From Minisyncoccota bacterium (GTDB lineage: Bacteria > Patescibacteriota > Minisyncoccia > Phycocordibacterales > XYD1-FULL-46-19): 64,000 nucleotides of DNA. Numbering within the stretch: the stretch's first letter is position 1; each line of letters starts with the position of its first letter. Where the stretch lies: positions 68,587 through 132,586 of the forward strand of contig JBAYIK010000001.1 in NCBI GenBank assembly GCA_041665625.1. The letters run 5' to 3'. Positions 43,585 to 61,788 of the stretch are shown here, piece after piece. The position numbers and the translations under genes are program-made. The notes under the pieces are model-generated. The model made no database searches. It saw only the letters and a list, made by a program, of their open reading frames with translations, and was not told the DNA's origin.

Positions 43585-43600
43585 GAACAATCACGCACTC

Positions 43601-43639
43601 AAAAATGGCACTAACCCCTAGGGGCTAGTGCCATTTTTG
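43601..43639. terminator. bidirectional rho-independent terminator
   Basis: aaaaATGGCACTAACCCC-TA-GGGGCTAGTGCCATttttt 14-bp stem with one mismatch, A-run before and T-run after. Confidence 0.75.
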
Positions 43640-43801
43640 TTTCGTCGCTATTAAGCACGTAGGTATAGGGCCAAAGATTTGGCAGTGACTATTCTCGCAT
43701 ATTCTTAGGCTAGTCGGCCGTGATATCTTAGAATATGTCCCAGCGATATATTCGCATCTCTACATCTACGCACTGGATAGCGACGAATGGGTTTTTCCTC
43801 T

Positions 43802-44479
43802 TTACTTAAGCCCAACAAACGAGCTGATCTGTTCGCTGGCCTCTTGCCTTGTCATGGTCAACAGAGAACTCAAGGATTCTTCCCTCTCGTTCTCATCGGG
43901 GACATGATCATAGATGAGCTGTGTCAGGTAGTTTTTTTGTCGTTCGCTAATCATAGGTACGCCATCAGACCTTTCTTCTTCTATCTGAATCGGACCGCCA
44001 TAATTCGCTCGATCGTCTAAATCCATGGTGAAGTAAGCGGAGATGTTAGCCGAGCGTATGATTGCCGATAAAAATGCGGATTTCTCAGCGAGCTTAATAG
44101 TCTTGTTTTCGTCATTGTCATTGCGAGATAATGATGCGCATCCACGACCTTCCCCAGCTACTATCCCTGTTGGGTGGTAAATAATGCACTTAAAGGCCAC
44201 TAAATTCTTAGCATCGCTAAAAGAGGCCAAAGTGTCTCGATCAAGCTCAAAACGACTGGTAAAGCCGAAAATTTGCGCAATGCGTTCGCCACCTCCTTTG
44301 CTTAGGACCTTCTTGCCATCAATGACATTGTAGTCTTGGCCTTTTTGGAGAATCGGTAAAACCTTGTCGATAAAATATCTCCTTTTTAACAACATCAAGT
44401 TAACACCTTGCTTGAAGTAATCTAAAGTATTAAGAACTTCACTAACTCTAATTGCTCCTGGTTTGTTAAGAGTTTCCAT
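43802..44479 (-). CDS. hypothetical protein
   Basis: 225-aa ORF, no motif recognised. Confidence 0.45.
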   Translation of the reverse strand: METLNKPGAIRVSEVLNTLDYFKQGVNLMLLKRRYFIDKVLPILQKGQDYNVIDGKKVLSKGGGERIAQIFGFTSRFELDRDTLASFSDAKNLVAFKCIIYHPTGIVAGEGRGCASLSRNDNDENKTIKLAEKSAFLSAIIRSANISAYFTMDLDDRANYGGPIQIEEERSDGVPMISERQKNYLTQLIYDHVPDENEREESLSSLLTMTRQEASEQISSFVGLK

Positions 44480-44491
44480 AACGATTATTAA

Positions 44492-44788
44492 TTAGTTTTT
44501 TGCTAATGGCTGGACCTGGAGCCGGTGAAAAAGGGCAATCCGTTTCGGGTATTTTTTGAGGACTTGGCCGTCCTGATCTTTCTTCTCTACCATAGTTAGA
44601 CTGGAGAGAGACTTCTCGCCTTTTTTGACGACAAAGCCTAACTTAATCCATTCACGAAAGGTTCTAGCGTCTTGATAGGGGTCAAAGGACTCGGCAACTT
44701 CTTCTGAGAAGCGTTGAGCGATCTGTGCCTTCACGTCCTCATAGGTGCGAAGTGACCCACGATAATTTGTCTTAGTTAAAGTGACCAT
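44492..44788 (-). CDS. hypothetical small basic protein
   Basis: 98-aa ORF 12 nt upstream of 43802..44479 on the same strand. Confidence 0.45.
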   Translation of the reverse strand: MVTLTKTNYRGSLRTYEDVKAQIAQRFSEEVAESFDPYQDARTFREWIKLGFVVKKGEKSLSSLTMVEKKDQDGQVLKKYPKRIALFHRLQVQPLAKN

Positions 44789-45105
44789 AATAATTAAAGG
44801 TTAACGAGTAAAGACCTCGCTGGACTAGAGTGAGGAAAGGGGTGAAGTAACCAAGTCATCGACCTATTTCTTAATCACTTCAATTATTTAGTCGATAAAT
44901 TCTTAGGGGGGTACCCGGGGTTGTTCGGTTAACATCCCTAGATTGTGGCTGGTACCATAAGGTAGCGGGGACATTCTCGCCCGTGGCGACTATTTCCAAT
45001 CTCTATTAAAAAGGCCTAATCTGACCACCCTTAGATTAGGGAAAAATTTTTGTAAAAATTTGCCAAAAGTGCTATCATCTTGTCAAGTATGAAGTTATTC
45101 TCATA

Positions 45106-46074
45106 TTGAGGAATAAGGACATTCTCCCAGTTTTTAGTAAACAAAATATGAAAAGTTATTATCGAATAATGCTTGGCCACAGGAGTATCTATGCCGAGGA
45201 TGCGTACAAGGGTAATTTTATCGCTGCCGGCTTTATTAAAGACAAAGACCTGGTTAACCATCTTTTTGACAGTCGTCGCGAGTTCAACGAGGAGTTTATT
45301 CCTATTTTTTTGAAACAAAATCCAGACAAGACAAAAGTTGGTGCTGGTCTTGCTTGTGGAATGCTTTGGACAATTGTCAAAGGTATACAAATTGGCGATA
45401 TTATTCTTTGTCCTGACGGTAAAGGAAATTATTATGTTGGTGAAGTTGTTGGCGGTTATGAGTATCGCAAGGGTGAAATTTTGCCCCATCGTCGGCCTGT
45501 TCACTGGTTTCCAAAAACAATCTCAAGAAACGAGATGAGCCAGTCATTAAAAAACTCAACTGGGGCGATTGGAACAGTCAGTGATATTAGTCGATATTCT
45601 TCTGAATTAGAATCCTTGCTTTCCGGGAATAACCCTCAGGCAATTATTACTGTAGATGACACTATTGAAGATCCCAGTGTTTTTGCTCTAGAAAAGCACC
45701 TAGAAGATTTCCTTGTCCATAATTGGAAGCATACTGAGTTAGGAAAACATTATGATATTTATGAGGAAGAAGGAGAAATTGTGGGACAGCAGTATCCAAG
45801 CGATACGGGGCCAATTGATATTCTGGCAATAAGTAAAGATAAAAAAGAAATATTGGTGGTAGAGCTTAAAAGAGGAAGAATAAGTGATGTCGTTGTGGGG
45901 CAAATTCAACGCTATATGGGTTATGTTAAAGAAGAGTTACTAGAAAAGAACCAGACAGTCCGTGGGGCCATAATTGCATTTGAGGATGATGTCAGGGTTC
46001 ATCGTGCCCTTTCTGTCGCAGCAAATATAGATTTTTATACGTATAAGGTTCATTTTGAATTAAGGAAAAAATAG
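45106..46074 (+). CDS. PUA(EVE)-like N-terminal domain fused to NucS/DUF91-like PD-(D/E)xK nuclease; putative Type IV modification-dependent restriction enzyme
   Basis: N-terminal LWTIVKGIQIGDIILCPDGKGNYYVGEVVGGYEY resembles the EVE/PUA beta-barrel pattern; C-terminal GPIDILAISKDKKEILVVELKRGRISDVVVGQIQRYMGYV matches the NucS-type PD-(D/E)xK core. Real start may be Met at 45148. Confidence 0.55.
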   Translation: MRNKDILPVFSKQNMKSYYRIMLGHRSIYAEDAYKGNFIAAGFIKDKDLVNHLFDSRREFNEEFIPIFLKQNPDKTKVGAGLACGMLWTIVKGIQIGDIILCPDGKGNYYVGEVVGGYEYRKGEILPHRRPVHWFPKTISRNEMSQSLKNSTGAIGTVSDISRYSSELESLLSGNNPQAIITVDDTIEDPSVFALEKHLEDFLVHNWKHTELGKHYDIYEEEGEIVGQQYPSDTGPIDILAISKDKKEILVVELKRGRISDVVVGQIQRYMGYVKEELLEKNQTVRGAIIAFEDDVRVHRALSVAANIDFYTYKVHFELRKK

Positions 46075-46078
46075 GTAT

Positions 46079-48640
46079 ATGACAAACTCTAAAGAAGCAT
46101 CTGCTCGAATTAAGATAAACAAACTGCTTGAAGCCTCTGGCTGGCGTTTTGGAGACGACAAAAAAGGAAAAGCTAATATACAACTTGAGCCAGGAGTTAA
46201 GTATTCCGAGCTTGGCGACGACTTTGAAAACGAAACTCACGGTTTTATTGATTTTCTTTTGCTTGACAAAGATGGCCGGGCGCTTGTGGTCCTAGAGGCA
46301 AAAAAGGAATCGATTGACCCTCTTTCTGCCAAAGAGCAAGCTAGAAACTACGCTCGTAATGTTGGAGCGCGGTTCGTCATTCTTTCTAATGGTAACATCC
46401 ATTATTTCTGGGATACTAAACATGGAAACCCTGATGCCATTTCTCGTTTTCCGACTCAAGACTCAATAACTCAATATGAAAAATACACTCCAAACCCTGA
46501 GGAATTAGCTAATACTTTGGTTGACGAGAACTACATTGCCTTAACTCAAATGCCAGGTTTAGTAAATGACCCTGCTTTCCTAAATGAGGCAACGAGAGTT
46601 GAGTTCTTAAGAAATAATAATTTAAAACAACTTCGACCTTACCAACTGAAGTCAATTAAGGCTCTTCAGGAGTCCGCCATGTCTGGTAATCAACGTTTTC
46701 TTTTTGAGATGGCTACGGGTACGGGAAAGACACTCATTTCGGCGGCTGTTATTAAATTATTCCTAAAATCTGGCAATGCCCGCAGAGTTCTTTTTCTTGT
46801 TGATCGATTAGAACTTGAGGGCCAAGCCTATAAAGCATTTAAAGCTTATCTCGGCCATGATTTTGCTACGGTTATTTATAAAGATAACCGCGATTCCTGG
46901 CAAAATGCCAGTGTCGTTGTTTCCACTATTCAAACTTTTCTCGCTGGCGATCGTTATAAAAAGGAATTCTCTCCTACCGATTTTGAGTTAGTTATCTCTG
47001 ACGAAGCCCATCGTTCTATTGGTGGTAATAGTCGAGCGGTCTTTGAATATTTTGTTGGTTATAAATTAGGTTTAACTGCCACACCTAAAAACTATATCAA
47101 GGGCGTTGACCCTGAGGGGGCGGATGTTCAGAGAGAATATGAGCGTCGATTACTTCTTGATACTTACAAAACTTTTGGCTGTGAGCCGGGCAATCCGACG
47201 TTTACCTATGATCTTCTTCAGGGTTCAAAAGACGGATTTCTTATTCAGCCGACCTTGGTTGATGCTCGAACAGAAATTACAACCGAGCTTTTGTCAGAAA
47301 AAGGCTATGCGGTTCATTCCACAACCGAGGAAGGAGAGAATGTCGATCAAGTCTTTAATGAGCGACACTATGAGCGAAAGTTCTTCAACGAAGAAACTAA
47401 TATTGCTATGTGTAAGGCCTTTATTGATAATGGCCTTTTTGACCCAGTAGCACAAAAACAGGGTGTTCAGCTTTTTGGTAAATCAATTGTCTTCTGTGTC
47501 TCACAAAAACACGCTTCGAGAGTGACCAATATTCTTAACAAATTGGCGTTTGAGAGATGGCCAGATCAATACGGTGAATCAGATTTTGCTATGCAAGTGA
47601 CCTCGCAGGTATCCAGTGCTCAACAGATGACAGTTAATTTCTCTAATAATCGTCTCGGTGGTCAAGTTAAGAAACCAGAAGGCTATGATTCTAGTAAGAC
47701 ACGCATTGCGGTAACTGTGGGAATGATGACGACAGGTTATGATTGCCAAGATTTGCTTAACATCGCTTTAATGCGCCCCGTTTTTAGTCCTGCCGACTTC
47801 GTCCAGATTAAGGGACGCGGGACCAGAAAATGGTTATTTGAGTATAAAGATTATGTTGACAAGGAAACAACTCAGATAGCTAAAGAAAGATTTAAATTCT
47901 TTGATTTCTTTGCCACTTGCGAATACTTCGAAGAAGGATTTCCTTATGACGAGAAGATAAAGCTCCCACAAATTAAAAAAGTTGTTGAATCTGAAACTTC
48001 GGGGGATAAAGCTTCGTCTCAGGGAGAATTTGTTGATGAAAAAGGTAACAAGATCTTTAAAGGACCAATTGATTTGGCTACCTCGGACGAGATTGCCTCT
48101 GTCTCCGAGACTGTTATCGGGGAAGAAGGTATGAGAATTGACCGTGAAGGCTTCAAAAGAGCCGTCGAAGAAGATATTCTCGGCAACGAGAAGCTTAAGA
48201 ATATGTGGGAGAACGGCGATACAGAGGAAGCGGAAGACTTTGCTAAAAAAGAGATTTTTGATAAGCCTAAATATTTCTTGAACCTCGATAAGATTCGTAG
48301 GATTTTTGGCGTTGATCGTCGGGTGACTGTTAAGGAATTTTTGCAGGTAGCCTTTGGTGATAAAGAAACATTTGAGATGAAGGACGATCTCTTGGAGTCC
48401 GAATGGCAGAAGTTCGTCGATATTTATGATGTTGATCAACCTCATTATCAACCCGCGAAGAATTTCTTTAAAGCCTATATCTCAGATGAAGAAGTCCGCG
48501 ACATTGTTAAGCGCAATCAACCTGCCGAATTCTATCATTGCCCGTCCTTCGACTTCGAAGATTATCAAAAACTAAACGGATATAGAGTGATCGTCCCACA
48601 ATATGTCCGTGACTATGCCTATCAATTAACAAACTTATAA
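46079..48640 (+). CDS. hsdR: Type I restriction enzyme R subunit (HsdR), compact
   Basis: N-terminal PD-(D/E)xK (DFLLLDKDGRALVVLEAKK), SF2 helicase motifs I (MATGTGKT) and II (VISDEAHRS), canonical KINKLLEASGW N-terminus. Confidence 0.85.
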   Translation: MTNSKEASARIKINKLLEASGWRFGDDKKGKANIQLEPGVKYSELGDDFENETHGFIDFLLLDKDGRALVVLEAKKESIDPLSAKEQARNYARNVGARFVILSNGNIHYFWDTKHGNPDAISRFPTQDSITQYEKYTPNPEELANTLVDENYIALTQMPGLVNDPAFLNEATRVEFLRNNNLKQLRPYQLKSIKALQESAMSGNQRFLFEMATGTGKTLISAAVIKLFLKSGNARRVLFLVDRLELEGQAYKAFKAYLGHDFATVIYKDNRDSWQNASVVVSTIQTFLAGDRYKKEFSPTDFELVISDEAHRSIGGNSRAVFEYFVGYKLGLTATPKNYIKGVDPEGADVQREYERRLLLDTYKTFGCEPGNPTFTYDLLQGSKDGFLIQPTLVDARTEITTELLSEKGYAVHSTTEEGENVDQVFNERHYERKFFNEETNIAMCKAFIDNGLFDPVAQKQGVQLFGKSIVFCVSQKHASRVTNILNKLAFERWPDQYGESDFAMQVTSQVSSAQQMTVNFSNNRLGGQVKKPEGYDSSKTRIAVTVGMMTTGYDCQDLLNIALMRPVFSPADFVQIKGRGTRKWLFEYKDYVDKETTQIAKERFKFFDFFATCEYFEEGFPYDEKIKLPQIKKVVESETSGDKASSQGEFVDEKGNKIFKGPIDLATSDEIASVSETVIGEEGMRIDREGFKRAVEEDILGNEKLKNMWENGDTEEAEDFAKKEIFDKPKYFLNLDKIRRIFGVDRRVTVKEFLQVAFGDKETFEMKDDLLESEWQKFVDIYDVDQPHYQPAKNFFKAYISDEEVRDIVKRNQPAEFYHCPSFDFEDYQKLNGYRVIVPQYVRDYAYQLTNL

Positions 48641-48643
48641 TAA

Positions 48644-51193
48644 ATGAACGCTGACACCAAAAGACATATCGATTCGGCTCGCCAAGTGTTAGTTGGGGTG
48701 GTTCCAAATCCGACTTCGCAGATAGACCAGATCACGAACGCGTTGATTTATAAGTTTATGGATGATATGGATCAGTCCGCGATTAAGGCTGGCGGTGAGC
48801 CTTCGTTCTTTGTTGGTAGTCTTGAGCGTTATGCTTGGACTCGCTTGATGGACGCTCGCATTGGCAATCAAGAGCGAATGAATCTTTACTCCGAAGCTCT
48901 ACTTAAATTCTCTGAAGCAAAACAACTGCCAGAACTTTTTAGAGGAATTTTTAAATCTGCCTTCTTACCTTATCGCTCGCCTGAAACTCTAGGTTTATTT
49001 CTTAAAGAGATTGATTATTTCGACTATTCTCATCCAGAAGAACTTGGTAATGCTTATGAATATCTGCTGTCGATAATGTCCTCTCAAGGTGACGCGGGGC
49101 AATTCCGTACCCCCCGTCACATTATCGACTTCATTGTTGACGTGGTTAACCCTACCAAAGACGATAAGGTTCTCGATCCTGCTTGTGGGACCGGTGGCTT
49201 CTTGGTGAGCTCCTATAAACATATTCTTGAACAGCATGATGGTAAAGATGACCCAGACAAGAAGGAAAAATCACTTACTCCCGACCAGCGCCGAGCTTTG
49301 GCAAATAACTTTGAAGGCTATGACATCGACCCGGGGATGGTCCGTATTGCTCAAGTTAATATGTATCTTCACCAATTTAAGAATCCAAAAATCTTTCAAT
49401 ATGATTCTCTCTCAAGTGATGAGCGTTGGAACGATAAGTTTAGCGTAATCTTGGCTAACCCACCCTTCATGTCTCCTAAAGGTGGGATTAAACCGCACAG
49501 TAAGTTTAGTATTCAATCGAGCCGAAGTGAGGTGTTGTTTGTTGATTATATAATGAATCATCTTCAGCCCAAAGGCCGAGCTGGTATTATTGTCCCAGAA
49601 GGTGTCATCTTTCAATCGGGGACTGCTTATAAACAACTCCGCAAGAATCTTGTCGAAGATGGTTTATTTGCTGTTGCCTCTTTGCCGTCAGGAGTTTTTA
49701 ATCCTTATGCCGGTGTCAAAACAAGTATCCTCTTTTTCGATAATGAGATCTCAAAGAGGACAAATGATATTTTGTTTATAAAAATTAAGAACGATGGCTT
49801 TGACTTGGGAGCCCAGAGACGACCAATTGATAAAAATGATTTGCCTGGGGCAATTAGTTTCATCAACCAATACAAAGAATATCTTGGTAATGATAAAGCT
49901 GCTCTGGCTAAACTATGGGCACATACAGGGGAAGACAAGTTCTTTTCTGTTGAGAAGGCAAAAATTTCTGAGGACGGTGACTATAATCTTTCTGGTGATC
50001 GTTACCGAGTCGCGACTGACTATTCTAACTCTAAGTGGCCGATGATAGGATTGGGAAAATTAGAAGAAGAAGGGAAAATTGAATTTTTAAGAGGTCAAGG
50101 ACTATCAAAGAGTGATTTAATTGAAGAAGGTAAAAGTAAGTGTATCCACTATGGCGAAATTTATACCTTATATGATCCCATTATTAAGAATGTCATAAGT
50201 AGGACTGATTTTGAAGGTAAGGTTACGTCATTAAAAGGTGATGTTCTTGTCCCCGCAACGACAACTGCTGATGCGATGGGGATTGCCGTGGCGAGATCAT
50301 TAAATGAGCAGGGGGTGATAATTGGGGGTGACATAAATATTATCAGAACGAGAAATAAGTTTATGTTGGCCGATTATCTAGCTTTATTAATTAGTAACCC
50401 TCCATTAAAAATAGAACTTTCTAGGTCTGCTAAGGGTGCAAACATACTCCATTTGTCAAACAGTGATTTAAAAAGGCTTCTGATTCCTCTCCCTCCGCTT
50501 GAAATCCAAGAGCAAATCGTCTCAGAGTTGGACGGCTACTCAAGTATAATTTCCGGCGCTAAACAAATCTCTCAAAACTGGAAACCTAAAATCGAGATTG
50601 ACCCTGAGTGGGAGGAGGTTAAGATAGAGGAAATCTCTGATTTAATTACAAAAGGCACAACGCCGACCACTAACGGCGGTAAATTCACGGAAACAGGAAT
50701 CAATTTTATAAAAGTTGAAAGTTTGTCTGAAACTGGTGAAATTGACCTTAAAAAAACATCTTTTATTTCTGGTGAGTGCCATGAGTCACTAAAGCGAAGT
50801 CAATTAAGAGAGAATGACATATTGTTTTCCATCGCTGGTACGAAAATGGGATTATCGGCTATCGTTTCTAAAAATATTTTACCTGCAAACACAAATCAAG
50901 CCTTGGCAATTATAAGATTAAAAAATAATACTGACCCGCAATATGTACTAAATTACTTGAGGTCTATTGCTTTAATATCGCTAATTGAAAACATTAAGGT
51001 CGGAGTTGCTCAGTTTAATCTCTCATTAAAACAAGTAGGTGAACTAGAAATACCTTTCCCTCCTCTCGAAACCCAGAAACAAATCGTAGAAAAAATCGAA
51101 GCTGAACGCATCTTGGTAGACTCTGCCAAAAAATTGATTGGGATTTATGAGAAAAAGACTAGGGAGGTTCTAGCTAAGCTTTGGGAGAAATAG
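48644..51193 (+). CDS. hsdMS: fused Type I methyltransferase-specificity subunit (HsdM-HsdS in one polypeptide)
   Basis: N-terminal half: N6-adenine MTase motifs DPACGTGGFL (I) and LANPPF (IV). C-terminal ~400 aa: two target-recognition domains each followed by a conserved LPPLEIQEQIV / FPPLETQKQIV helix. Confidence 0.8.
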   Translation: MNADTKRHIDSARQVLVGVVPNPTSQIDQITNALIYKFMDDMDQSAIKAGGEPSFFVGSLERYAWTRLMDARIGNQERMNLYSEALLKFSEAKQLPELFRGIFKSAFLPYRSPETLGLFLKEIDYFDYSHPEELGNAYEYLLSIMSSQGDAGQFRTPRHIIDFIVDVVNPTKDDKVLDPACGTGGFLVSSYKHILEQHDGKDDPDKKEKSLTPDQRRALANNFEGYDIDPGMVRIAQVNMYLHQFKNPKIFQYDSLSSDERWNDKFSVILANPPFMSPKGGIKPHSKFSIQSSRSEVLFVDYIMNHLQPKGRAGIIVPEGVIFQSGTAYKQLRKNLVEDGLFAVASLPSGVFNPYAGVKTSILFFDNEISKRTNDILFIKIKNDGFDLGAQRRPIDKNDLPGAISFINQYKEYLGNDKAALAKLWAHTGEDKFFSVEKAKISEDGDYNLSGDRYRVATDYSNSKWPMIGLGKLEEEGKIEFLRGQGLSKSDLIEEGKSKCIHYGEIYTLYDPIIKNVISRTDFEGKVTSLKGDVLVPATTTADAMGIAVARSLNEQGVIIGGDINIIRTRNKFMLADYLALLISNPPLKIELSRSAKGANILHLSNSDLKRLLIPLPPLEIQEQIVSELDGYSSIISGAKQISQNWKPKIEIDPEWEEVKIEEISDLITKGTTPTTNGGKFTETGINFIKVESLSETGEIDLKKTSFISGECHESLKRSQLRENDILFSIAGTKMGLSAIVSKNILPANTNQALAIIRLKNNTDPQYVLNYLRSIALISLIENIKVGVAQFNLSLKQVGELEIPFPPLETQKQIVEKIEAERILVDSAKKLIGIYEKKTREVLAKLWEK

Positions 51194-51196
51194 GCC

Positions 51197-51988: not shown

Positions 51989-51997
51989 CCTTTTACT

Positions 51998-52687: not shown

Positions 52688-52693
52688 ATACTT

Positions 52694-54231: not shown

Positions 54232-54306
54232 CGACCAACCATCTCCGCAGGGCTTTATTGTATCTTTTGATTTTTAGGTGGTAATATTGGCTAATAAAGA
54301 TGATTT

Positions 54307-55143
54307 ATGTGGCAAAAACTCTCAAAACTGATTAAATTATTGCTTAAGACCATCGCGGTTTTGTTGCTTATTGGCCTTTGGTCTACGGCTTCATACTTTG
54401 CCATAAATTACTTTGCTAAGCTGACAGAAGAGAAAAATGACTGTAATATCTCAGGGATTAGCTTGCACGGGGAAGTGGTCACCTATAACAGCGCTGATTC
54501 CTATAACGATAACGGGGACCTTGTCCGTGATCAGACCTCGGCCGATGAAGTTCTCTATATTGTTAGGCAGGCTCAATCTAATGACGATATAAAAGCTATC
54601 GTTGTCGATATTGATTCTGGTGGAGGATACCCAGAAGCGGGGGAAGAGATGATGAATGCCTTCAAGCAGTCTAAGAAGCCCGTAATAGCCTTTATTCGGG
54701 GCCAGGGGCTCTCTGCCGCTTACCTTGCTGCTACTGGTGCTCAGACAATATTCGCTTCTAAATTCTCCGATATAGGAAGTATTGGAATCACGGGTTCGTA
54801 TCTTCAAGAGACAGAGAAGAACAAGAAGGAAGGCTTAACCTATATTGACCTGAGTTCTGGTAAGTATAAGGATACGGGTAATACGGGGCGCGCCTTAACT
54901 CTGGATGAGAAGAAACTATTCATGAGGGATATTAATATCATGTTTAGCTATTTTGTTGAGATAGTGGCTAAGAACAGGAAGATAGACATCACGAAGGTGC
55001 GGGAGATTGCCGATGGTTCTAGCATGCTTGGAGACGCCGCTCTTAAGGCTGGTTTGATTGATCGAATTGGTCTATATCCTGACGTTAGGAAGTATCTATC
55101 TGAGAAGATCGGGACTGAGGCAAAGATTTGTTGGGAGAACTAG
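54307..55143 (+). CDS. membrane-anchored S49-family peptidase (SppA-like)
   Basis: N-terminal TM anchor; S49/ClpP-like core VVDIDSGGGYPEAGEEMMNAFKQSKKPVIAFIRGQGLSAAYLAATGA. Confidence 0.65.
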   Translation: MWQKLSKLIKLLLKTIAVLLLIGLWSTASYFAINYFAKLTEEKNDCNISGISLHGEVVTYNSADSYNDNGDLVRDQTSADEVLYIVRQAQSNDDIKAIVVDIDSGGGYPEAGEEMMNAFKQSKKPVIAFIRGQGLSAAYLAATGAQTIFASKFSDIGSIGITGSYLQETEKNKKEGLTYIDLSSGKYKDTGNTGRALTLDEKKLFMRDINIMFSYFVEIVAKNRKIDITKVREIADGSSMLGDAALKAGLIDRIGLYPDVRKYLSEKIGTEAKICWEN

Positions 55144-55352
55144 CTCCCAATTTCTTCCCCGCTATTGCTGACGACAAAGACAGCTTTTTTGGGATAAAAC
55201 TGTTATCAAGATAGGTTCTAGTGGTGGGAGGATTCCTCTGAGCTAGCTCTGCTGACATTAGGGGCCTTCTTTCGGATAAATCCGCAATTTGGAGGGAAAC
55301 AGAAGCTAAGGAACCCTTTAAAATAACCTTTTATCGTGATATATTATAAAAA

Positions 55353-56150
55353 ATGCCCATCAATAATGTCGATTTTAATTCTCTGGAGGTTAAGGAGTAC
55401 TTGAAAAGGTTGGATCAGGTTATTTATGATATTTTTAGCATTGTTGAGACTCATATTGAGACGAGAACAACTAATATCAATAAAAAATTAGGCTCTTACT
55501 ATCGGGATAGACTAAAAAGATTAGAAGAACTCTTAAATGAGAATTCTTGGGGGAAGAAAATAGTTAAGAGCAATAAGAAGCCTCGGACAGATCTGGTTGT
55601 CTTATTGGAGGAAAGAGACGAGTTAATTCTAAGAAAAACCAAGAAAGACTTATCTCTGATCTTGTTAGAAATTCAGGTATTAAGAAATTTGCCTCCAAAC
55701 GAAACAGAGACCGGTGTAGCAGACGAAGATTTAAAAAACTATCTCGAGGGTTTAATTTATGCCCAAAATAATAATTTAGGTATTGGTATTGCTAGCCAAT
55801 ACATAATAAAAAAGGCTGATGGGGAATACCTTTATAACAATAAGCCTATTGTTTTTCATAGTAAAAAAACTGACTACTTCAAATTATTCGATAGTCTTTA
55901 TGATATCACTAATGGAGGGGGAGAAGTCACTTATAGCGAACTTTATCGAGAATATCGCAAACATGGAGGGAAAAAGCCCAAAAAGGGGGAGACTGCGGAT
56001 GAGATAAAACACAAAATCTCAAACTTGGTAACAAGTTTCTTTTCCTTCGTCCGGGTTGACGGGAGAAAAATCTCTAGAGTCAACCTTGGGGGGCGGAATT
56101 TTATTGAGGCAATAACAATTTCAGGTCTTCGTTTTAATAATAAAAGGTAG
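55353..56150 (+). CDS. hypothetical basic protein
   Basis: 265-aa ORF, Lys-rich, no motif. Confidence 0.45.
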   Translation: MPINNVDFNSLEVKEYLKRLDQVIYDIFSIVETHIETRTTNINKKLGSYYRDRLKRLEELLNENSWGKKIVKSNKKPRTDLVVLLEERDELILRKTKKDLSLILLEIQVLRNLPPNETETGVADEDLKNYLEGLIYAQNNNLGIGIASQYIIKKADGEYLYNNKPIVFHSKKTDYFKLFDSLYDITNGGGEVTYSELYREYRKHGGKKPKKGETADEIKHKISNLVTSFFSFVRVDGRKISRVNLGGRNFIEAITISGLRFNNKR

Positions 56151-56287
56151 TTCTTATTTTTGACGACAAGGTTCTTTCTAATTCGACCTATAAGGGTCGT
56201 TTTTTTGTTGCAAACAAAGGGTAAAACGGGGAGAGCAAGAAATCGCAAGAAATAGTGAGAAGCTTTTGAGTATGGAAAAATAACACC

Positions 56288-58159
56288 ATGACAAACAATT
56301 TATCCCTCAACAACAAACGTGAAATGGCTCTTGCCTATGCCGGCTTAGGTTGGAAAATCTTCCCTTGTCACAACACAGGTGGAAATAGGTGCTCTTGTGG
56401 CAACACCAATTGTGACAAACAAGGGAAACATCCAAGAACGCCAAACGGCTTTAAGGATGCGACGAGCGATCCTTTAATAATAACTGATTGGTGGACTAAG
56501 TGGCCAGAGGCCAATATTGCAGTAGCGACGGGCAAGGTATCGGGAATTTCTGTCGTCGATATCGATTGTGAAAAAGACGACACCGGACAAGTTACAAAAA
56601 TGGGGCTTAATGAGGGGCTACCTACAACCCTAATGGCCAGAAGTGGAGGACTTGGATGGCATTATTTTTATCAATATCAAGAGGGTCTAGCAAGTAAAAT
56701 TGGATTTAGAGAATTAGTCGATTTAAAATCCGATGGTGGATATATCATCTTGCCTCCGTCAGACCATAAGTCTGGTAATAAGTATGAATGGCACAGTGAT
56801 TTAGGCAAAAATCTAATAGCACCTTTCCCCGAAGAAATTTTGTTAGAACTTTCTCAATCTAAAGGAACCAGCCAACAATTACCAATTGTTACTACAAATA
56901 ATACCTCGACTGTTCCCTTTGAGATACCAGTGGGCACTCGAAACGGAGCCTTTGCTTCAATTGTCGGGAAACTTGTTAGCCACCTCCCTGTGACTGACTG
57001 GGAATCTTGGGCTAAACCCTTGATCTTTATGGCTAACTCTGGGAACAAAGAACCTTTGCCCGAGACAGAATTACAGAGTGTCTACTCGTCAATTACCCAA
57101 AGGGAGTTGGCAAAAAGAACCTCTTCTCCGACCAAGGGCAAAATTGAAGTACTTAGCGCTAAAGAGTTAGAAGATACAATCTTCCCTGAAGCAAACTGGG
57201 CAATCTATAGTTTTTTCGAGACAGGGACGGTAAACATGATCTCTGCGGAGCCCAATAACTACAAGAGTTGGGTGATGCTAGATGCCGCGGTTTCTCTCGC
57301 TTCCGGACGGCCGCTATTTGGCCAATTTAAGACTGAAAAACAGTCTGTCCTTATCGTTAATGAAGAGGATTATCACTCTCAGCTAAGGACAAGAATGATG
57401 ATGATTGATAAGAATTGGAGTCAGTTACCTATATACTTCGCTATCCAAAATGGGGTAAAACTAATTGATAGCGACATTGAGAAGATTATCAGTCTGGCCA
57501 AAGAAAAGGGGGTTGGTTTCATTATCTTTGATTCACTGCGAAGTCTTCACTCGGCCGAAGAAAACAGCTCGACAGAGATGCAAGCGGTCCTTGATCAGTT
57601 AAAAAAGGTCACTAAAGCTGGTTTTACCGTCCTATTTAGCCACCATAATCGTAAAAAGGGGATTTCTTCTTCTGATAATGGTAATGAATCACGCGGAAGC
57701 TCGGGGATAAACGCGGCCGTTCATGGCCACATAACCTGCGAACCGAAAGAGGAGGGAGGACAAACCTTTTTAATCATCTCTCAGCCAAAACTAAAGGGTG
57801 GTCCCAAGATGGATCCGTTTCGCGTGAGAATTGATCTAAGTAGCGATAAACCCTTCGTTTATGACGGAGTTTACAGCAAGGGGCTGACCAAAAACGAACT
57901 CGAGGAAGAAATAATCAAATTATTAGAATTCCACGAGGGGAAGGGACTAGATGTTGGCCACTTTTTAGCCGCAAATATTGCCGGGGATAGGAGGCTGAGA
58001 GAAACTCTCCGCACAATGTCAGGAGATCAGACGATTACCGCAATCCTCTGGAAAGATGTCCAAAAATCAGGGCTACCTGTGGCTAGTGAAGGGGTTAATC
58101 CCAATGAGAAGTTCTATTTTTTGCCGGATAGCTTAATAAATGATGATATTCCACCTTAA
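56288..58159 (+). CDS. bifunctional primase-polymerase (Prim-Pol) N-terminal domain fused to RecA-like/AAA_25-type domain with degenerate Walker A
   Basis: PrimPol N-terminal signature: GWKIFPC...GKHPRTPNGFKDATSD...ANIAVATG...SGISVVDID. C-terminal RecA-fold layout: FIIFDSLRSLHS Walker-B-like; AEPNNYKS in the Walker A position. Confidence 0.75.
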   Translation: MTNNLSLNNKREMALAYAGLGWKIFPCHNTGGNRCSCGNTNCDKQGKHPRTPNGFKDATSDPLIITDWWTKWPEANIAVATGKVSGISVVDIDCEKDDTGQVTKMGLNEGLPTTLMARSGGLGWHYFYQYQEGLASKIGFRELVDLKSDGGYIILPPSDHKSGNKYEWHSDLGKNLIAPFPEEILLELSQSKGTSQQLPIVTTNNTSTVPFEIPVGTRNGAFASIVGKLVSHLPVTDWESWAKPLIFMANSGNKEPLPETELQSVYSSITQRELAKRTSSPTKGKIEVLSAKELEDTIFPEANWAIYSFFETGTVNMISAEPNNYKSWVMLDAAVSLASGRPLFGQFKTEKQSVLIVNEEDYHSQLRTRMMMIDKNWSQLPIYFAIQNGVKLIDSDIEKIISLAKEKGVGFIIFDSLRSLHSAEENSSTEMQAVLDQLKKVTKAGFTVLFSHHNRKKGISSSDNGNESRGSSGINAAVHGHITCEPKEEGGQTFLIISQPKLKGGPKMDPFRVRIDLSSDKPFVYDGVYSKGLTKNELEEEIIKLLEFHEGKGLDVGHFLAANIAGDRRLRETLRTMSGDQTITAILWKDVQKSGLPVASEGVNPNEKFYFLPDSLINDDIPP

Positions 58160-58244
58160 ACCACGCCTGGCACCTAGCATAACCTAGAGGTTGTTGCCAG
58201 GTGCCAAGTAACTTATTAGGTAAATTAACTAACAAATAAAAAAT

Positions 58245-58838
58245 ATGAATGATTATAGTTTAGAGGTCAAGGAAGAAGAGCTTCTTAAAGAAAAAAGAAC
58301 TCTATGGGATACTCTTGTTAAAAGAGGAGAAGAAATTGGTGTTGAAGATGGGGCAAGAGAGATTGTTGTGGCTCTTAATGCCAATAACCTCCCAACGGCC
58401 TGGTCCTGTGGTGGACATGTTGATACCTCAATCGAGCAAACAGATGATTATTGGCAGAGAAACCCCTGGGTCTATTTTGAGTTATGTGAGCACCATACTT
58501 ACCCCTCAGAAGATTCCGAAGAGGGTCGGGCCTCGGCTGCTCTTTTTGAAGTCAGGAAGGGGATGACAACAGAGGTTCCTGAGCTTATTGAAGAATTTTA
58601 CAAAACAAGAACTCCACAAAATGGAGTTCGGTTAATGTTTTCTAAGGTGGGCGGATTGGATTACTTATATCGACTTGACGCGGTAAGTGATGGGCCAGAC
58701 ATTATAACGGAAGATTGTGACCTTTCTTGTCTGAATCAGAAACTTTTTTACCAACAAGAAGAGATGAGGGCTTTTGCAAAGTTCTTAGAAGATCGCTACT
58801 TATCCCCCTCTCGACCAATTAGTCATGAAAGGGGTTAA
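58245..58838 (+). CDS. acidic hypothetical protein
   Basis: 197-aa ORF, no motif. Confidence 0.45.
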   Translation: MNDYSLEVKEEELLKEKRTLWDTLVKRGEEIGVEDGAREIVVALNANNLPTAWSCGGHVDTSIEQTDDYWQRNPWVYFELCEHHTYPSEDSEEGRASAALFEVRKGMTTEVPELIEEFYKTRTPQNGVRLMFSKVGGLDYLYRLDAVSDGPDIITEDCDLSCLNQKLFYQQEEMRAFAKFLEDRYLSPSRPISHERG

Positions 58839-59072
58839 ATTAGTGGTTAAATTAACTTGATGTTAAAATGAAGAAACTACACGAAGACGATGACAAAATA
58901 GTTAATATTGTGTCCAGCGAAGGGCAACGAGGGTCTTTGTGTAGTAACAAGATGTCTTCTCGTTGCCCTTCTTTGGATTATGAAGATATTGGCGCATCTG
59001 GCTCAGTTAGCGACGCTTACGATATTCTTTTTAATAAAACGGTCGAAGTTATAAATAATAGGAAAATATTAT

Positions 59073-60767
59073 ATGAATCTTATCGCAATTTACGGAAGAG
59101 TATCCACATCGAGACAGGAAAATGAGGATACTGTTGAGAATCAACTACACTCAATAAAGGAATTTGCCGACAAAAAATATCTAACGGATGGTGGTTATCA
59201 AATCATTCGCGAATATACTGATGAAGGGTGGAGTGGTGATTCATTGATTCGCCCAGGGCTTGATAACTTGCGCCAAGATGCCAGGAAGAAAATCTGGGAC
59301 ACAGTTATTATCTATGACCCTGATCGCCTAGCTCGACGCTATTCATACCAAGAACTAGTTATTGATGAACTCAAGGAGGCAGGCGTTGAAGTCTTGTTTG
59401 TTACGATAAAATTACCAGAGAATGATGATGACAAGATTCTTTATGGTGTGCGAGGCTTATTTTCTCAATATGAGAGGGCAAAAATCGCCGAAAGGTTTAG
59501 ACAAGGGAAACTTCGCAAAGTAAGAGAAGGCCATATTTTGGTTAGCGAAGCTCTTTATGGCTATCGTTATGTTCCCAAGGTTGAGGCCCCTGGCTCCGCG
59601 AGAATCCATGGCTACTATGAGATTGATCCCGAAGAGTCAGAGGTGGTAATAAAGATTTTTGATTGGGTGGTAAAGGATAAACTAACCCTTAGAACTATCG
59701 TTAAAAAATTACAAGAAGAAGGAATCAAGCCTCGCAAAAGTATTCGTGGAGTCTGGGCAACAAGCACACTAACAACAATGTTAAGGCACGAGGGCTATAT
59801 TGGTAAGGCTCATTGGGGTAGCTCTTATGCGGTGATACCAGAAAATCCAACCAAAAAAGAAAAATATCGACGTATCAAAAAGAGTAGCCGTCGGGCAAAA
59901 CTAAAAAGTGACTGGTTTATAATAGCCATTCCCCCGATTATCTCCGAAGATACTTTCTTTAGAGCTCGTCATCAATTAGAGATTAACTATAAGATGCACC
60001 CACGCAACAGAAAGAACGACTATCTCTTAGCAGGGATGATTAGGTGTACTTGTGGGAGGTCAAGAGCAGGAGAAGGACCTAAACAAGGAACACATCTATA
60101 CTATCGTTGCAGTGATCGAGTCAGTTCCTACCCTTTACCCCGAACCTGCCACAAAAATGGCTTAAACGCGAGGATTGCAGATCAATTAGTTTGGGACAAA
60201 TTAACAGGTTTAATGGCGTCTCGATCACTAATTACCAAAGAAATTGAGCGCTGGAGTAAAGAAGAGGATGGGCCTAGGGATGTAGTCGATATTAAAGCTG
60301 TCCAGAAGGAATTAAGTAAGTTAAAGAAGGAAGAGGACCGTTACAACCGAGCTTATGCTGAAGGAATCTTTTCAATGGAGAAGTTAAAAGAGTATCTTGA
60401 GCCAGTTAGGGCAAAGATGGCTAAGCTTGAGTCTTCTCTAAGAGAAACAGGAAGAAAGCCACAAGGGAGAAATGAGCTTTTATCAGTGTTATCAGAGAGG
60501 GTTAATGTCGCTTTAGAGGCACCTCTGGTTTTGGCGGAGAATTTGGATTTTGCCACAAAACGTGAGATTATAACTAGGACCATTGATCAAGTTGTGGGCG
60601 ATCAGGAGGAAATAAAGGTTACTGGCCACATTCCACTACAAACTAATGTCGAAGATTATTCAACTAACAATAAAGGGGTATTAAGCCTTATTCAAACAAA
60701 TGTCGAGTTCTGCACTAACGATTGGAATTGTCGGGCTACCAAACGTCGGGAAATCGACGCTTTTTAA
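59073..60767 (+). CDS. large serine recombinase (integrase)
   Basis: Resolvase catalytic domain with nucleophile Ser (IAIYGRVSTSRQ), recombinase domain, Cys4 zinc ribbon (CTCGRS...YYRCSDR), coiled coil; 564 aa. Confidence 0.9.
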   Translation: MNLIAIYGRVSTSRQENEDTVENQLHSIKEFADKKYLTDGGYQIIREYTDEGWSGDSLIRPGLDNLRQDARKKIWDTVIIYDPDRLARRYSYQELVIDELKEAGVEVLFVTIKLPENDDDKILYGVRGLFSQYERAKIAERFRQGKLRKVREGHILVSEALYGYRYVPKVEAPGSARIHGYYEIDPEESEVVIKIFDWVVKDKLTLRTIVKKLQEEGIKPRKSIRGVWATSTLTTMLRHEGYIGKAHWGSSYAVIPENPTKKEKYRRIKKSSRRAKLKSDWFIIAIPPIISEDTFFRARHQLEINYKMHPRNRKNDYLLAGMIRCTCGRSRAGEGPKQGTHLYYRCSDRVSSYPLPRTCHKNGLNARIADQLVWDKLTGLMASRSLITKEIERWSKEEDGPRDVVDIKAVQKELSKLKKEEDRYNRAYAEGIFSMEKLKEYLEPVRAKMAKLESSLRETGRKPQGRNELLSVLSERVNVALEAPLVLAENLDFATKREIITRTIDQVVGDQEEIKVTGHIPLQTNVEDYSTNNKGVLSLIQTNVEFCTNDWNCRATKRREIDAF

Positions 60768-61788
60768 TGCGTTGACTCAGAAGGGGGTGCCGGCTGAGAA
60801 TTACCCATTCTGCACCATTGATCCAGCCGTGGGCATTGTTGCTGTACCAGACGAGAGGGTAGATATTCTCGCTGAGTTCTCTAAGTCAGCTAAAAAAATC
60901 CCCGCAGCGATTGAATTCGTGGACATTGCCGGTTTGGTTAAAGGTGCCTCCGAAGGCGAAGGCTTGGGCAATAAATTCCTTGCTCATATTCGCGAAGTTG
61001 ATGCTATTGCTGAGGTGGTACGTATCTATGAAGATTCTAATATCACGCATGTTTCTAACAAGATTGACCCGATTGATGATATTGAGACTATTAATCTCGA
61101 GTTAATTCTCGCTGACCTACAAACGGTAACCAAAAGAATCAACAACATCGCCCGCGAAGTTAAGCGTGGCGATAAAGCCGAAGTGGCCGAGAACGCGGTC
61201 TTGCAAGACATTAAAAAAATTCTTGAGTCTGGCCAGATGATAAATAATTTTGAGAATACTAAAGAATGGTGGTCAGCTGTCTGGCAATTGAATTTGCTGT
61301 CCTCCAAACCAATTCTTTATGTCTTAAATAAGAAAAATGGAGCTAAAGCAGTAGATACTGCCCCGGTTGAAGAATATTTGAAAAAACTAAAAGCTTGTTA
61401 CGTGATAGTTGATGCCAAAATAGAAGGGGAGTTGTCCGAACTAGAAAAGGATGACAAAGAAGTCTTCAAAAAAGAATTGGGTGTCGAAGATGACGGTATT
61501 AATGACTTGATTAAAGAAAGTTATAAGCTACTTGGCCTAATGACTTATCTCACGACTGGCGAAGATGAGACAAGAGCCTGGACAGTCAAACAGGGTTCAA
61601 CGGCACCTGAAGCGGGGATGGCTATTCACACAGACTTCAAAGAGAAGTTCATTCGGGCTGAAGTGATCAATTGGCAAGACCTCCTCAAGGCCGGTTCTTA
61701 TGGCAAAGCTCGTGAGCAAGGCCTTGTTCGCACCGAAGGCAAAGAGTACATAGTCAAAGACGGCGACGTGATTGAGTTTAAGATTTAA
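60700..61788 (+). CDS. ychF: ribosome-binding ATPase YchF
   Basis: GIVGLPNVGKSTLFNALT Walker A, FCTIDP, TGS C-terminal domain (GDVIEF); start overlaps the integrase 3' end. Confidence 0.9.
   Translation: MSSSALTIGIVGLPNVGKSTLFNALTQKGVPAENYPFCTIDPAVGIVAVPDERVDILAEFSKSAKKIPAAIEFVDIAGLVKGASEGEGLGNKFLAHIREVDAIAEVVRIYEDSNITHVSNKIDPIDDIETINLELILADLQTVTKRINNIAREVKRGDKAEVAENAVLQDIKKILESGQMINNFENTKEWWSAVWQLNLLSSKPILYVLNKKNGAKAVDTAPVEEYLKKLKACYVIVDAKIEGELSELEKDDKEVFKKELGVEDDGINDLIKESYKLLGLMTYLTTGEDETRAWTVKQGSTAPEAGMAIHTDFKEKFIRAEVINWQDLLKAGSYGKAREQGLVRTEGKEYIVKDGDVIEFKI

What the first reader, a model, noticed from the sequence alone, without database searches (positions are those of the whole stretch)
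43640..60770. Probable ~17-kb integrative element whose serine integrase gene runs into the 5' end of ychF
The large serine recombinase (59073-60767) overlaps the first 68 nt of ychF. Within this stretch are a Prim-Pol/RecA-like replication gene, an S49 peptidase, several hypotheticals and the whole defence operon. Serine integrases usually sit at an element end adjacent to attL/attR, so the att core is probably within ~60690-60770 inside the ychF N-terminal codons. The left boundary is not defined. The strong bidirectional terminator at 43601-43639 and the AT-rich 160-bp spacer after it are the most plausible limit.
Basis: inference. Interest (0 to 1): 0.55.

Follow-up and report, generated by a model that had tools for sequence, protein, structure and literature searches.

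The report
Serine-integrase island inserted in ychF
A mobile element in a Patescibacteria (CPR) genome has inserted into the first codons of the conserved gene ychF using a serine integrase whose own gene is cut by the insertion, and the matching left junction lies 35 kb away, not 17 kb.

Summary
A large serine recombinase gene (59073-60767) overlaps ychF (60700-61788) by 68 nt, and the gene content listed is there.

The integrative-element reading is supported, and the right att core falls inside the predicted window (ATTGGAAT, 60721-60728). The integrase–ychF junction recurs across the family: DNA loci of several other Patescibacteria lineages show it, and 76 of the 120 closest homologues end in an out-of-frame read of ychF. 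The closest relatives have empty sites and a native MSLSIGIVG start.

The proposed left limit (43640) is only a boundary between conserved and variable modules. The cognate attL is at about 25797-25969. It holds the native ychF −10 element, ATG and six codons, fused in frame to the orphaned last 45 codons of the integrase.

Recombining the two junctions in silico restores a canonical 359-aa ychF. It also gives a 597-aa integrase with the C-terminal extension conserved in non-integrated homologues. So attP lies inside the integrase gene, and integration swaps the integrase tail.

The att-bounded segment is about 34.9 kb and contains housekeeping-type genes, so present-day mobility is doubtful.

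Serine-integrase insertion at ychF was already reported for actinobacterial pipolins. This is a new variant of a known kind.

The parts
25736..25766 (+). Terminator of the upstream 175-aa gene. It marks the end of the native left flank of ychF.
   Evidence: 13-bp stem with 10 G-C pairs followed by a T run.
25797..25831 (+). B arm of attL: the native ychF -10-like element (TGTTATAGT, 25797-25805), ATG at 25812, and codons MSLSIG up to the core ATCGGAAT (25824-25831). The likely crossover dinucleotide is GG at 25827-25828.
   Evidence: Exact match to the ychF-start pattern ATGTCNYTNWSNATHGGNAT. It has the same start as native relatives. Sequence read.
25829..25969 (+). P' arm of attL plus the orphaned 3' end of the integrase gene: 45 sense codons (PASVARLFEIKESTFLLPFEFVIKLPKPKWQTIKGFKRPKKEGIK) and the stop.
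   Evidence: tblastn with the tails of class-2 homologues. A profile of 37 extensions hits only +25805-25966, E = 9.8e-6. The frame continues from the integrase after in-silico recombination. Alignment.
25970..43642 (.). Interior of the att-bounded segment, left part:
- FadL-like (26112-27329)
- CER1-like (27814-28950)
- HisK (29001-31220) and response regulator (31229-31612)
- hydrolase (31616-32284, minus strand)
- ProRS (32357-33811)
- two class II aaRS-type genes (33890-35041; 35951-37261, minus strand)
- methyltransferase (35067-35900)
- APH-like (37346-38425, minus strand)
- S66 peptidase (38473-39474)
- HD_4 (39632-40288)
- AAA_18-like (40376-40879)
- LOOT RNA (41296-41426) with two ORFs (41480-41992, 42031-43584)
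- hairpin terminator (43600-43639)
   Evidence: Pfam results and gene tables. Rfam. Partial synteny with sister genome L176 at 82-95% nt. Hairpin fold.
43643..45088 (-). Conserved left module shared with the sister element: a 225-aa gene (43802-44479, phrog_10048), a 98-aa gene (44492-44788, weak ArdC-N match) and 300 bp of non-coding DNA.
   Evidence: 84% nt identity to L162 4523-5968, starting exactly at 43643. PHROG and Pfam.
45089..58267 (+). Variable cargo of 13.2 kb: PDC-S02, type I restriction-modification (R; fused M+S), CBASS cyclase plus NucC, a 244-aa unknown, RNase H, an S49 protease, a 265-aa unknown, and a Prim-Pol/AAA_25 replicase.
   Evidence: Replaced in L162 by 3.2 kb of unrelated genes (HSDR_N_2, SNase and others). 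PADLOC, Pfam and PHROG.
58268..59125 (+). Conserved right module: a 197-aa gene (58245-58838) and an 85-aa small ORF (58868-59125) that overlaps the integrase start. The small ORF is conserved across the family and is a candidate accessory or directionality factor.
   Evidence: 88% nt identity to L162. Small-ORF alignment with the EGQR...CPxLxY...AFDILFE motif in the window, L162, L103, L106, L181 and L189. No Pfam family.
59073..60767 (+). Large serine integrase, integrated (tail-swapped) form, 564 aa. The last 12 residues (CRATKRREIDAF) are an out-of-frame read of ychF.
   Evidence: Pfam. Invariant catalytic RVST motif and four zinc-ribbon Cys residues in alignment A1. Tail analysis.
60639..60692 (+). 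A 54-nt fossil duplicate of the att region inside the integrase 3' end. It reads MSKIIQLTIKGY* in the ychF frame and TNVEDYSTNNKGVLSLI in the integrase frame.
   Evidence: An 18-aa insertion relative to L103 and L106. Also present in P0001 and P0002. It resembles a P-core-P' stretch of class-2 homologues.
60693..60728 (+). P arm of attR. It supplies the surrogate ychF start (ATG at 60700, MSSSALTIG) and the core ATTGGAAT (60721-60728). The likely crossover dinucleotide is GG at 60724-60725.
   Evidence: Sequence. Comparison with attB of relatives and with attP of L181. The reconstructed attP has 14/26 dyad matches (2 of 2000 shuffles reach this).
60729..61788 (+). B' arm and the remainder of ychF (host).
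   Evidence: Pfam. 80-86% aa identity to empty-site relatives.

Best explanation
This is an integrated member of a large family of serine-integrase elements that target the first codons of ychF.

How integration works. The attP core lies inside the 3' end of the integrase gene. Recombination with attB (ATGTCATTAAGTATCGG|AATTGTCGGGCTACC) probably crosses over at the GG of ATYGGNAT. It gives two junctions:
- attR (60693-60740). The element's P arm gives ychF a surrogate ATG and N-terminus (MSSSALTI in place of MSLSI). The integrase ORF now runs out of frame into ychF and stops after 12 codons.
- attL (25797-25969). The native ychF -10 element, ATG and six codons are fused to the orphaned last 45 codons of the integrase.

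Consequence for the integrase. The full-length 597-aa protein has a conserved C-terminal beta-strand extension and can be made only from the excised attP form. The integrated copy makes a 564-aa tail-swapped protein.

Content of the segment. The two att sites bound about 34.9 kb. The right 17 kb (43643-60728) has conserved end modules around a swappable 13-kb cargo, which holds type I restriction-modification, CBASS, PDC-S02 and a Prim-Pol replicase. The left 17.8 kb holds housekeeping-type genes and the LOOT operon.

Shown and inferred. Shown at sequence level: the junctions, the reconstructed attB and attP, the recurrence across the family, and the cargo mosaicism. Inferred: the exact crossover dinucleotide, any functional meaning of the tail swap, and that excision is now rare or lethal because aaRS-type genes sit inside the segment.
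For: - Large serine recombinase domains are present.
- Homologous integrases (48-92% identity) abut ychF in L103, L106, L006, L162-165 and L183-188.
- Of the 120 best homologues, 76 end in the out-of-frame ychF read and 37 carry a conserved extension instead.
- Empty sites with MSLSIGIVG starts occur in the nearest relatives: L082, L166, L168, and P0123-P0136.
- The attL signature at 25812-25969 consists of an exact ychF-start motif plus an extension-profile hit, E = 9.8e-6, unique in the window.
- The same attL architecture is present in L030, L084 and L035, E = 4e-9 to 5e-8.
- In-silico recombination gives a 359-aa ychF of native length and a 597-aa integrase that aligns through the junction with class-2 homologues.
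- An intact attP sits inside the integrase gene in L181, with a ychF-like start in its P arm and 16/26 dyad symmetry. The window's reconstructed attP scores 14/26, reached by 2 of 2000 shuffles.
- Left-flank synteny (response regulator, Ddl, MscL) matches the flank of an empty-site relative.
- The sister element L162 shares both end modules but has different cargo.
- An AF2 model of a class-2 homologue makes the core-encoded linker disordered and the extension a beta strand.
Against: - The att-bounded segment contains ProRS, two class II aaRS-type genes, a two-component system and other housekeeping-type genes. That is unusual for a mobile element.
- No attP or attB junction reads could be examined, and no empty site of the same strain was found.
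- Contiguity across 25.97-27.8 kb rests on one assembly.
- attL was not seen in the sister genome, because its data stop at the CER1-like gene.
- Three other intact family members show no attL within 10 kb, so the typical element size is unknown.
- No recombination directionality factor was identified.
Confidence: 0.75

Rival explanations
1. One reading: a discrete ~17-kb element, 43640-60770, whose left end is the terminator and AT-rich spacer. Everything to its left is ordinary chromosome.
For: Homology to the sister element begins exactly at 43643, just after a strong hairpin. All recognisably mobile or defence genes lie to the right of it. Genes to the left look like host genes and are partly syntenic in L176.
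Against: There is no ychF 5' fragment and no integrase 3' extension near 43.6 kb; the profile search gives nothing below E = 0.15 outside 25.8 kb. The hairpins of the window and L162 differ with compensating changes, as expected for terminators of different upstream operons. A complete attL that pairs with this attR exists at 25.8 kb.
Confidence: 0.1
2. The attL at 25.8 kb is a relic of an older, decayed family member. The present integrase element arrived later into the attR-like site, which resembles attB, and its own attL has since eroded or been deleted.
For: Integrase-less attL relics persist upstream of ychF in L030, L084 and L035. attR scars and a pseudogenised integrase occur in L042 and L036. 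The P arm mimics the B arm, so attR resembles attB. A fossil att duplication sits in the integrase 3' end.
Against: The orphaned extension is intact: 45 codons, no stop, motif kept. It is in frame with this integrase, and its P' arm shows dyad symmetry with this element's P arm, 14/26 with 2 of 2000 shuffles reaching this. No second attL-like sequence exists anywhere in the window.
Confidence: 0.1
3. Assembly artefact: the contig wrongly joins the attL region to the 26-32 kb stretch, so the 35-kb spacing is not real.
For: The 26-29 kb segment has an unusual G+C content of 51-53% and a FadL-like outer-membrane gene. Independent contigs cover only about 27.8-47 kb and 57.7-62 kb.
Against: The same order from the CER1-like gene to the integrase is seen in the sister genome and in independent JGI and Logan contigs. 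The left flank of attL is syntenic with ychF-upstream regions of relatives. Even if the join were wrong, attL would still be the partner site; only the distance would change.
Confidence: 0.04
4. The recombinase is a lone resolvase or invertase unrelated to any insertion, and its overlap with ychF is incidental.
For: Some database names call homologues 'DNA invertase'.
Against: It has the full large-serine-recombinase architecture. The junction with ychF recurs across the family. Relatives have empty sites. Recombinant attL and attR junctions are present.
Confidence: 0.01

Closest known systems
Pipolins with a large serine recombinase, integrated at ychF in Actinomycetota (PMC11551731)
   Same: The integration target is ychF and the recombinase is a large serine recombinase. 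Both are defence-gene-rich, self-replicating integrative elements with a bimodular structure of conserved core and exchangeable cargo.
   Different: The window has no piPolB; the replicase is Prim-Pol plus AAA_25. The host is Patescibacteria. That paper inferred the site from gene context only, and in the passages I read it describes no junctions, no attP inside the integrase gene and no replacement of the ychF start.
Serine-integrase prophages and elements that insert within ORFs (A118/phi10403S in comK, SPbeta in spsM, skin element in sigK). From general knowledge.
   Same: A large serine recombinase with simple att sites inside a host coding sequence. The integrase gene sits at the element end next to the junction.
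   Different: Those insertions disrupt the host gene until excision. Here the P arm supplies a new start codon and N-terminus, so ychF stays intact. Here also the integrase ORF itself spans attP.
Genes split by their own element's attP: SSV1-type integrases of Fuselloviridae (general knowledge), and integration-dependent immunity of mycobacteriophages, where attP lies in the repressor gene (PMC9262239)
   Same: The attachment site lies within an element gene, so integration changes the C-terminus of its product. This gives different integrated and free protein forms.
   Different: Those systems use tyrosine integrases and tRNA-gene targets. In the mycobacteriophages the gene affected is the repressor, which loses a degradation tag. 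Here a serine integrase loses a 45-aa conserved beta-strand extension and gains 12 unrelated residues. No functional consequence has been shown.
Defective pneumococcal prophage beside ychF (PMC8637289, citing Chen et al. 2019)
   Same: A mobile element with its integrase gene immediately upstream of ychF. It is reported to influence ychF expression.
   Different: The attB there lies between a DUF951 gene and ychF, not inside the ychF codons. The host (a Streptococcus) is unrelated.

Membership tests
Large serine recombinase (serine integrase) | N-terminal resolvase catalytic domain with the serine nucleophile | tested here: met
   PF00239, 2.9e-29, residues 4-154. The YGRVSTSRQ motif is invariant in A1 and A6. 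Nearest solved chains are the TP901-1 integrase and TnpX catalytic domains.
Large serine recombinase (serine integrase) | Recombinase domain and zinc-ribbon domain with four Cys | tested here: met
   PF07508, 1e-16, and PF13408, 8.7e-7. C325, C327, C346 and C359 are invariant.
Large serine recombinase (serine integrase) | Coiled-coil motif inserted in the zinc-ribbon domain | tested here: inconclusive
   The AF2 model of homologue P0003 has long helices at 377-424 and 430-462 after the zinc ribbon. This was not examined in the window protein itself.
Large serine recombinase (serine integrase) | Short att sites with dyad symmetry around a 2-bp crossover; attL and attR are hybrids of attP and attB | tested here: met
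   The reconstructed attP has 14/26 dyad matches (2 of 2000 shuffles reach this); the L181 attP has 16/26. The hybrid junctions resolve into a canonical attB and an open integrase ORF. The crossover dinucleotide itself (GG) is inferred.
Large serine recombinase (serine integrase) | A separate recombination directionality factor for excision | tested here: inconclusive
   An 85-aa ORF conserved with the integrase across the family is a candidate but has no family match. L183 has an HTH_17 ORF in that position.
Site-specific integrative element | Empty target site in relatives and recombinant junctions flanking the insert | tested here: met
   Empty sites in L082, L166, L168 and P0125. attL at 25797-25969 and attR at 60693-60740. 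No empty site of the same strain was found.
Site-specific integrative element | Evidence of current excision (attP or attB junction reads, circular form) | not testable with these tools
   No read data were available. Only non-integrated homologues from other organisms were seen (L181, L189).
Prophage | Capsid, terminase, portal and tail genes | tested here: not met
   PHROGs give only an S49 match to 'head maturation protease', an RNase H and a primase. No relatives in IMG/VR or INPHARED. Not every ORF of the 35 kb was scanned against PHROGs.
Integrative conjugative or mobilisable element | Relaxase, coupling protein, type IV secretion genes or oriT | tested here: not met
   None among the Pfam results for the window ORFs. 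Class-2 relatives L181 and L189 do carry a TrwB/TraG-like gene beside the integrase.
Pipolin | Primer-independent family B DNA polymerase (piPolB) | tested here: not met
   The only replicase found is Prim-Pol plus AAA_25. No PolB domain appears in any scanned ORF.

The most novel reading that the evidence does not exclude
Placing attP inside the integrase gene may work as a sensor of integration state. Only the excised circle encodes the 597-aa integrase with its C-terminal beta-strand. The integrated copy makes a tail-swapped 564-aa protein with different activity or stability, which biases the reaction towards stable integration. This would be widespread in Patescibacteria. In this lineage the att-bounded segment has also taken in about 18 kb of housekeeping-type genes, so the element would be locked in and serve as a fixed platform for exchanging defence cargo.
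Probability: 0.3. Interest if true: 0.75.

Novelty: new variant of a known kind. Interest (0 to 1): 0.6.

Why it matters
Mobile elements of Patescibacteria (CPR bacteria) are poorly characterised. This work defines a large, recurrent family, with about 980 integrase homologues at E ≤ 1e-30. It gives explicit attB, attP, attL and attR sequences that can be tested directly.

The target is the near-universal P-loop end of ychF. The element replaces the gene's start instead of disrupting it, which may explain how one integrase family can be found in several CPR lineages and also in conjugative-element contexts and in Bradyrhizobium.

An integrase ORF that spans its own attP is, as far as I could find, not described for serine integrases. 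It suggests a simple built-in way to make the integrated and free forms of the enzyme differ.

The well-defined att pair could also be of practical use as a new serine-integrase landing system.

The case also shows that a conserved-module boundary can be mistaken for an element end. Here the true junction was 18 kb further out.

Tried and rejected
- **Direct repeat of the right core near 43.6 kb.** GCACTAAC at 43608-43615 inside the hairpin would have given a plausible MALTIGIVG native start, and TATTAAGC is shared by 43650 and 60680. I rejected both: the sister element L162 lacks them and the true attL was then found at 25.8 kb.
- **attL just upstream of the LOOT RNA (about 41266).** The shared sequence there is only the LOOT promoter.
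- **Second ychF P-loop fragment.** None in the window, L103 or L106.
- **Synteny of the flanks with 160 ychF loci** from GTDB genomes and JGI metagenomes. No synteny at all; the nearest ychF is 79% identical.
- **Exact-protein look-ups** for ychF and for the 517-aa left neighbour. These returned only element-bearing contigs of the same strain.
- **IMG/VR scan with an integrase profile.** Only 22-23% identical proteins. The nearest proteins in PLSDB plasmids and INPHARED phages are at most 31% identical.
- **ychF-start-like motif at 17276.** It lies inside a membrane-protein ORF and is a chance match.
- **Idea that the island's HisK/response-regulator block was moved from upstream of Ddl.** Rejected, because the window has its own RR-Ddl pair at 6042-7400.
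- **attL of other intact family members** (L103, L106, L183, L162/L176). Not found within the 10-25 kb available.
- **Two relatives had gene tables but no DNA**.

Full report
**Observation.** A 564-aa large serine recombinase (59073-60767; Resolvase, Recombinase and Zn_ribbon_recom domains) overlaps the first 68 nt of ychF (60700-61788). Upstream lie a Prim-Pol/AAA_25 replicase, an S49 protease, an RNase H, several unknowns and a defence block. PADLOC resolves that block into PDC-S02, a type I restriction-modification system with fused M+S, and a CBASS cyclase with a NucC effector. The hairpin at 43600-43639 is real (-27.6 kcal/mol, z = -7.4).

**Host and relatives.** ychF searches place the window in Patescibacteria, among Paceibacteria-like genomes. 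The nearest ychF in GTDB genomes and JGI metagenomes is only 70-79% identical, and no flank synteny exists with 160 loci. Within those loci, homologous integrases (48-53% identity) sit directly upstream of ychF and run into it:
- L103 and L106 carry intact integrases.
- In L006 the integrase is cut off by the contig end.
- L036 has a pseudogenised remnant.
- L042 has a short scar.

The large protein collection holds 980 homologues at E ≤ 1e-30. I read the C-termini of the best 120. Seventy-six end in ...IPxxxNxVEFKTxxRNxRxAxxGExHAF, which is the out-of-frame translation of the ychF GIVGLPNVGKSTLF codons. Targeting the ychF start is therefore a property of the family. Another lineage (P0022, Komeilibacteria, six loci) shows the same junction.

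The closest ychF relatives (80-86% identity) start MSLSIGIVG or MGLSIGIVG and are 359 aa long. Where context is available they have no integrase upstream. The window's ychF starts MSSSALTIGIVG.

**Sister element.** P0001 (92% identical integrase) lies on a 215-kb contig of a related genome (L162/L176). The two loci share:
- window 43643-45088 (84% nt): two minus-strand genes plus 300 bp of spacer
- window 58268-61809 (88% nt): a 197-aa gene, the small ORF, the integrase and ychF

Between these blocks the window has 13.2 kb of cargo and L162 has 3.2 kb of unrelated genes. This explains why 43640 looked like an end: it is a boundary between a conserved module and variable DNA. The hairpins just to its left differ between the two genomes with compensating changes, as expected for terminators of different upstream operons.

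**Finding attL.** Thirty-seven of the 120 homologues do not end in the ychF read. They carry a conserved extension of about 40 aa (...NDRHGxxTxRH...LIPFxFxIKLPPP...). I searched the window with these tails. Many hit one place, +25817-25954. A profile of the 37 extensions finds only +25805-25966 in the six-frame window (E = 9.8e-6; next best 0.15).

The sequence there reads as follows:
- TGTTATAGT, a -10-like element, at 25797-25805
- six bases later, ATG TCA TTA AGT ATC GGA AT (25812-25831), the canonical native ychF start MSLSIG
- then, in the integrase frame, PASVARLFEIKESTFLLPFEFVIKLPKPKWQTIKGFKRPKKEGIK and a stop

A strong terminator of the upstream gene lies 45 nt before.

The same architecture, native ychF start followed by an integrase extension, occurs in L030, L084 and L035 (E = 4e-9 to 5e-8). 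Those loci lack an integrase and are relics.

**Reconstruction.** I joined the window across the shared core (attL ATCGGAAT, 25824-25831; attR ATTGGAAT, 60721-60728). This gives two products:
- attB, encoding a 359-aa ychF that starts MSLSIGIVGLPNVGKST, the native length and sequence type
- attP, in which the integrase ORF continues in frame to 597 aa and aligns through the junction with class-2 homologues

A class-2 homologue on its own contig (L181) shows an intact attP inside the integrase 3' end:

ATGTCGCATTCAGCTCTAACGATA GG TATGGTTTGGACACAACACGACAT

Its P arm holds a ychF-like start, and it has 16/26 dyad symmetry about GG (0 of 2000 shuffles reach this). The window's reconstructed attP gives 14/26 (2 of 2000). 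These results support GG as the likely crossover and show that the 25.8-kb P' arm and the 60.7-kb P arm are cognate halves.

Left of attL, the order response regulator, Ddl, then MscL matches the ychF-upstream flank of an empty-site relative.

**What this means.** The integrase gene spans attP. Integration removes its last 45 codons to the far junction and replaces them with 12 codons read out of frame from ychF. At the same time the P arm gives ychF a new ATG and N-terminus.

An AF2 model of class-2 homologue P0003 (mean pLDDT 74.6) has these features:
- The att-core-encoded residues 524-543 are disordered.
- The conserved LIPFxFxIKL forms a beta strand (546-555; the 10-residue blocks covering it have mean pLDDT 64 and 79).
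- That strand follows a beta hairpin at 499-517.

The integrated enzyme therefore lacks a structured terminal element. Whether this changes its activity is an inference.

A small ORF just upstream of the integrase is conserved across the family, including in class-2 contexts (motif AFDILFE). It is a candidate accessory factor but matches no known family.

**Size and content.** The att-bounded segment is about 34.9 kb. Its left 17.8 kb holds:
- FadL-like and CER1-like genes (G+C 51-53%)
- a histidine kinase and response regulator
- ProRS and two class II aaRS-type genes
- S66 and HD_4 genes
- the LOOT RNA with a two-gene operon

Much of this is shared at 82-95% nt with the sister genome, in the same order relative to the integrase, so the arrangement predates their split. 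How these genes came to lie between the att sites is unresolved. If they are essential single copies, excision would be lethal and the element is effectively fixed.

**Nature of the element.**
- There are no capsid, terminase or tail genes. Only an S49 protease matches 'head maturation protease'.
- There are no conjugation genes in the window.
- Class-2 relatives sit beside a TrwB/TraG-like gene. In L189 there is also a tyrosine integrase and ArdC, which points to a conjugative-element context.
- No close relatives exist in IMG/VR, PLSDB or INPHARED.

**Comparison with known systems.**
- Serine-integrase insertion at ychF was inferred from gene context for actinobacterial pipolins (PMC11551731).
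- A defective pneumococcal prophage lies just upstream of ychF (PMC8637289).
- attP inside an element gene is known for tyrosine systems: integration-dependent immunity (PMC9262239) and, from general knowledge, SSV1-type integrases.
- I found no description of a serine integrase whose ORF spans attP. The library searched is limited.

**Verdict.** I classify it as a new variant of a known kind, of moderate to good interest.

Noticed in passing
window 41296-41426 (+); L162 1503-1635; L103 3871-3997 (-); L179 13538-13672: The LOOT RNA (RF03000) occurs only four times in 1.3 Mb of Patescibacteria loci. Each copy sits at the 5' end of a small, variable operon, inside or next to a serine-recombinase island. 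This suggests a cis-acting leader RNA linked to these islands.
   Followed up: partly
window 60639-60692: A 54-nt fossil duplicate of the att region lies inside the integrase 3' end, adding 18 aa relative to L103 and L106. It is also present in P0001 and P0002 (70% identical). It looks like a decayed tandem attP core.
   Followed up: partly
L030 1238-1373 and 2907-2964; L084 ~1640-1760; L035 ~5600-5770; L042 ~2340-2410; L036 ~9700-10000: Relics of the family without an integrase. Three are attL remnants 0.9-4.4 kb upstream of an intact ychF; in L030 a 58-nt direct repeat of the ychF promoter and start lies 1669 bp apart. L042 has an attR scar next to hppA. L036 has a pseudogenised integrase.
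   Followed up: partly
L181 200-3485; L189 3108-10496: Homologues with the full C-terminal extension (intact attP) are not next to ychF. They sit beside a TrwB/TraG-like coupling-protein gene, and in L189 also near a Bacteroidota-type tyrosine integrase and ArdC. Homologues about 54% identical also occur in Bradyrhizobium chromosomes (P0026, P0049, P0052).
   Followed up: partly
window 58868-59125; L103 8225-8422; L106 5243-5434; L181 200-394; L189 7101-7421: A small ORF overlapping the integrase start is conserved across the family (EGQR...CPxLxY...AFDILFE) and has no Pfam family. In L183 an HTH_17 (excisionase-type) ORF occupies the same position.
   Followed up: partly
window 26112-28950: A FadL/Toluene_X-like outer-membrane transporter gene and a CER1-like gene lie in a stretch of 51-53% G+C, against about 42% elsewhere. 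This is unexpected in a Patescibacterium. They lie immediately inside attL.
   Followed up: no
window 31229-40288; L176 2687-10648; L179 1-10642: Three closely related genomes keep the response regulator and HD_4 as anchors but carry different aminoacyl-tRNA synthetase genes between them: class II D/K/N-type genes in the window, two class I b genes in L176, and a D/K/N-type gene plus PheRS alpha/beta in L179.
   Followed up: no
window 25797-25814, and many ychF loci: The native ychF -10 element (TGnTATAnT) lies only 6-10 nt from the ATG in many Patescibacteria, which suggests a leaderless or near-leaderless ychF mRNA. No comparable promoter was detected upstream of the surrogate start at attR.
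   Followed up: no
window 10922-10995 (-) and 14056-14131 (+): Two tRNA-Ala genes (GGC and UGC anticodons) bracket part of a G+C-rich stretch (50-56% over about 11-16 kb) that holds MscL, a CAP-domain protein and unknowns.
   Followed up: no
L179 15085-20642: In a third related genome the LOOT operon is followed by a different island, on the opposite strand, with two N6_N4 methyltransferases (one fused to ParB) and another large serine recombinase. That recombinase gave no tblastn hit with the window integrase.
   Followed up: no
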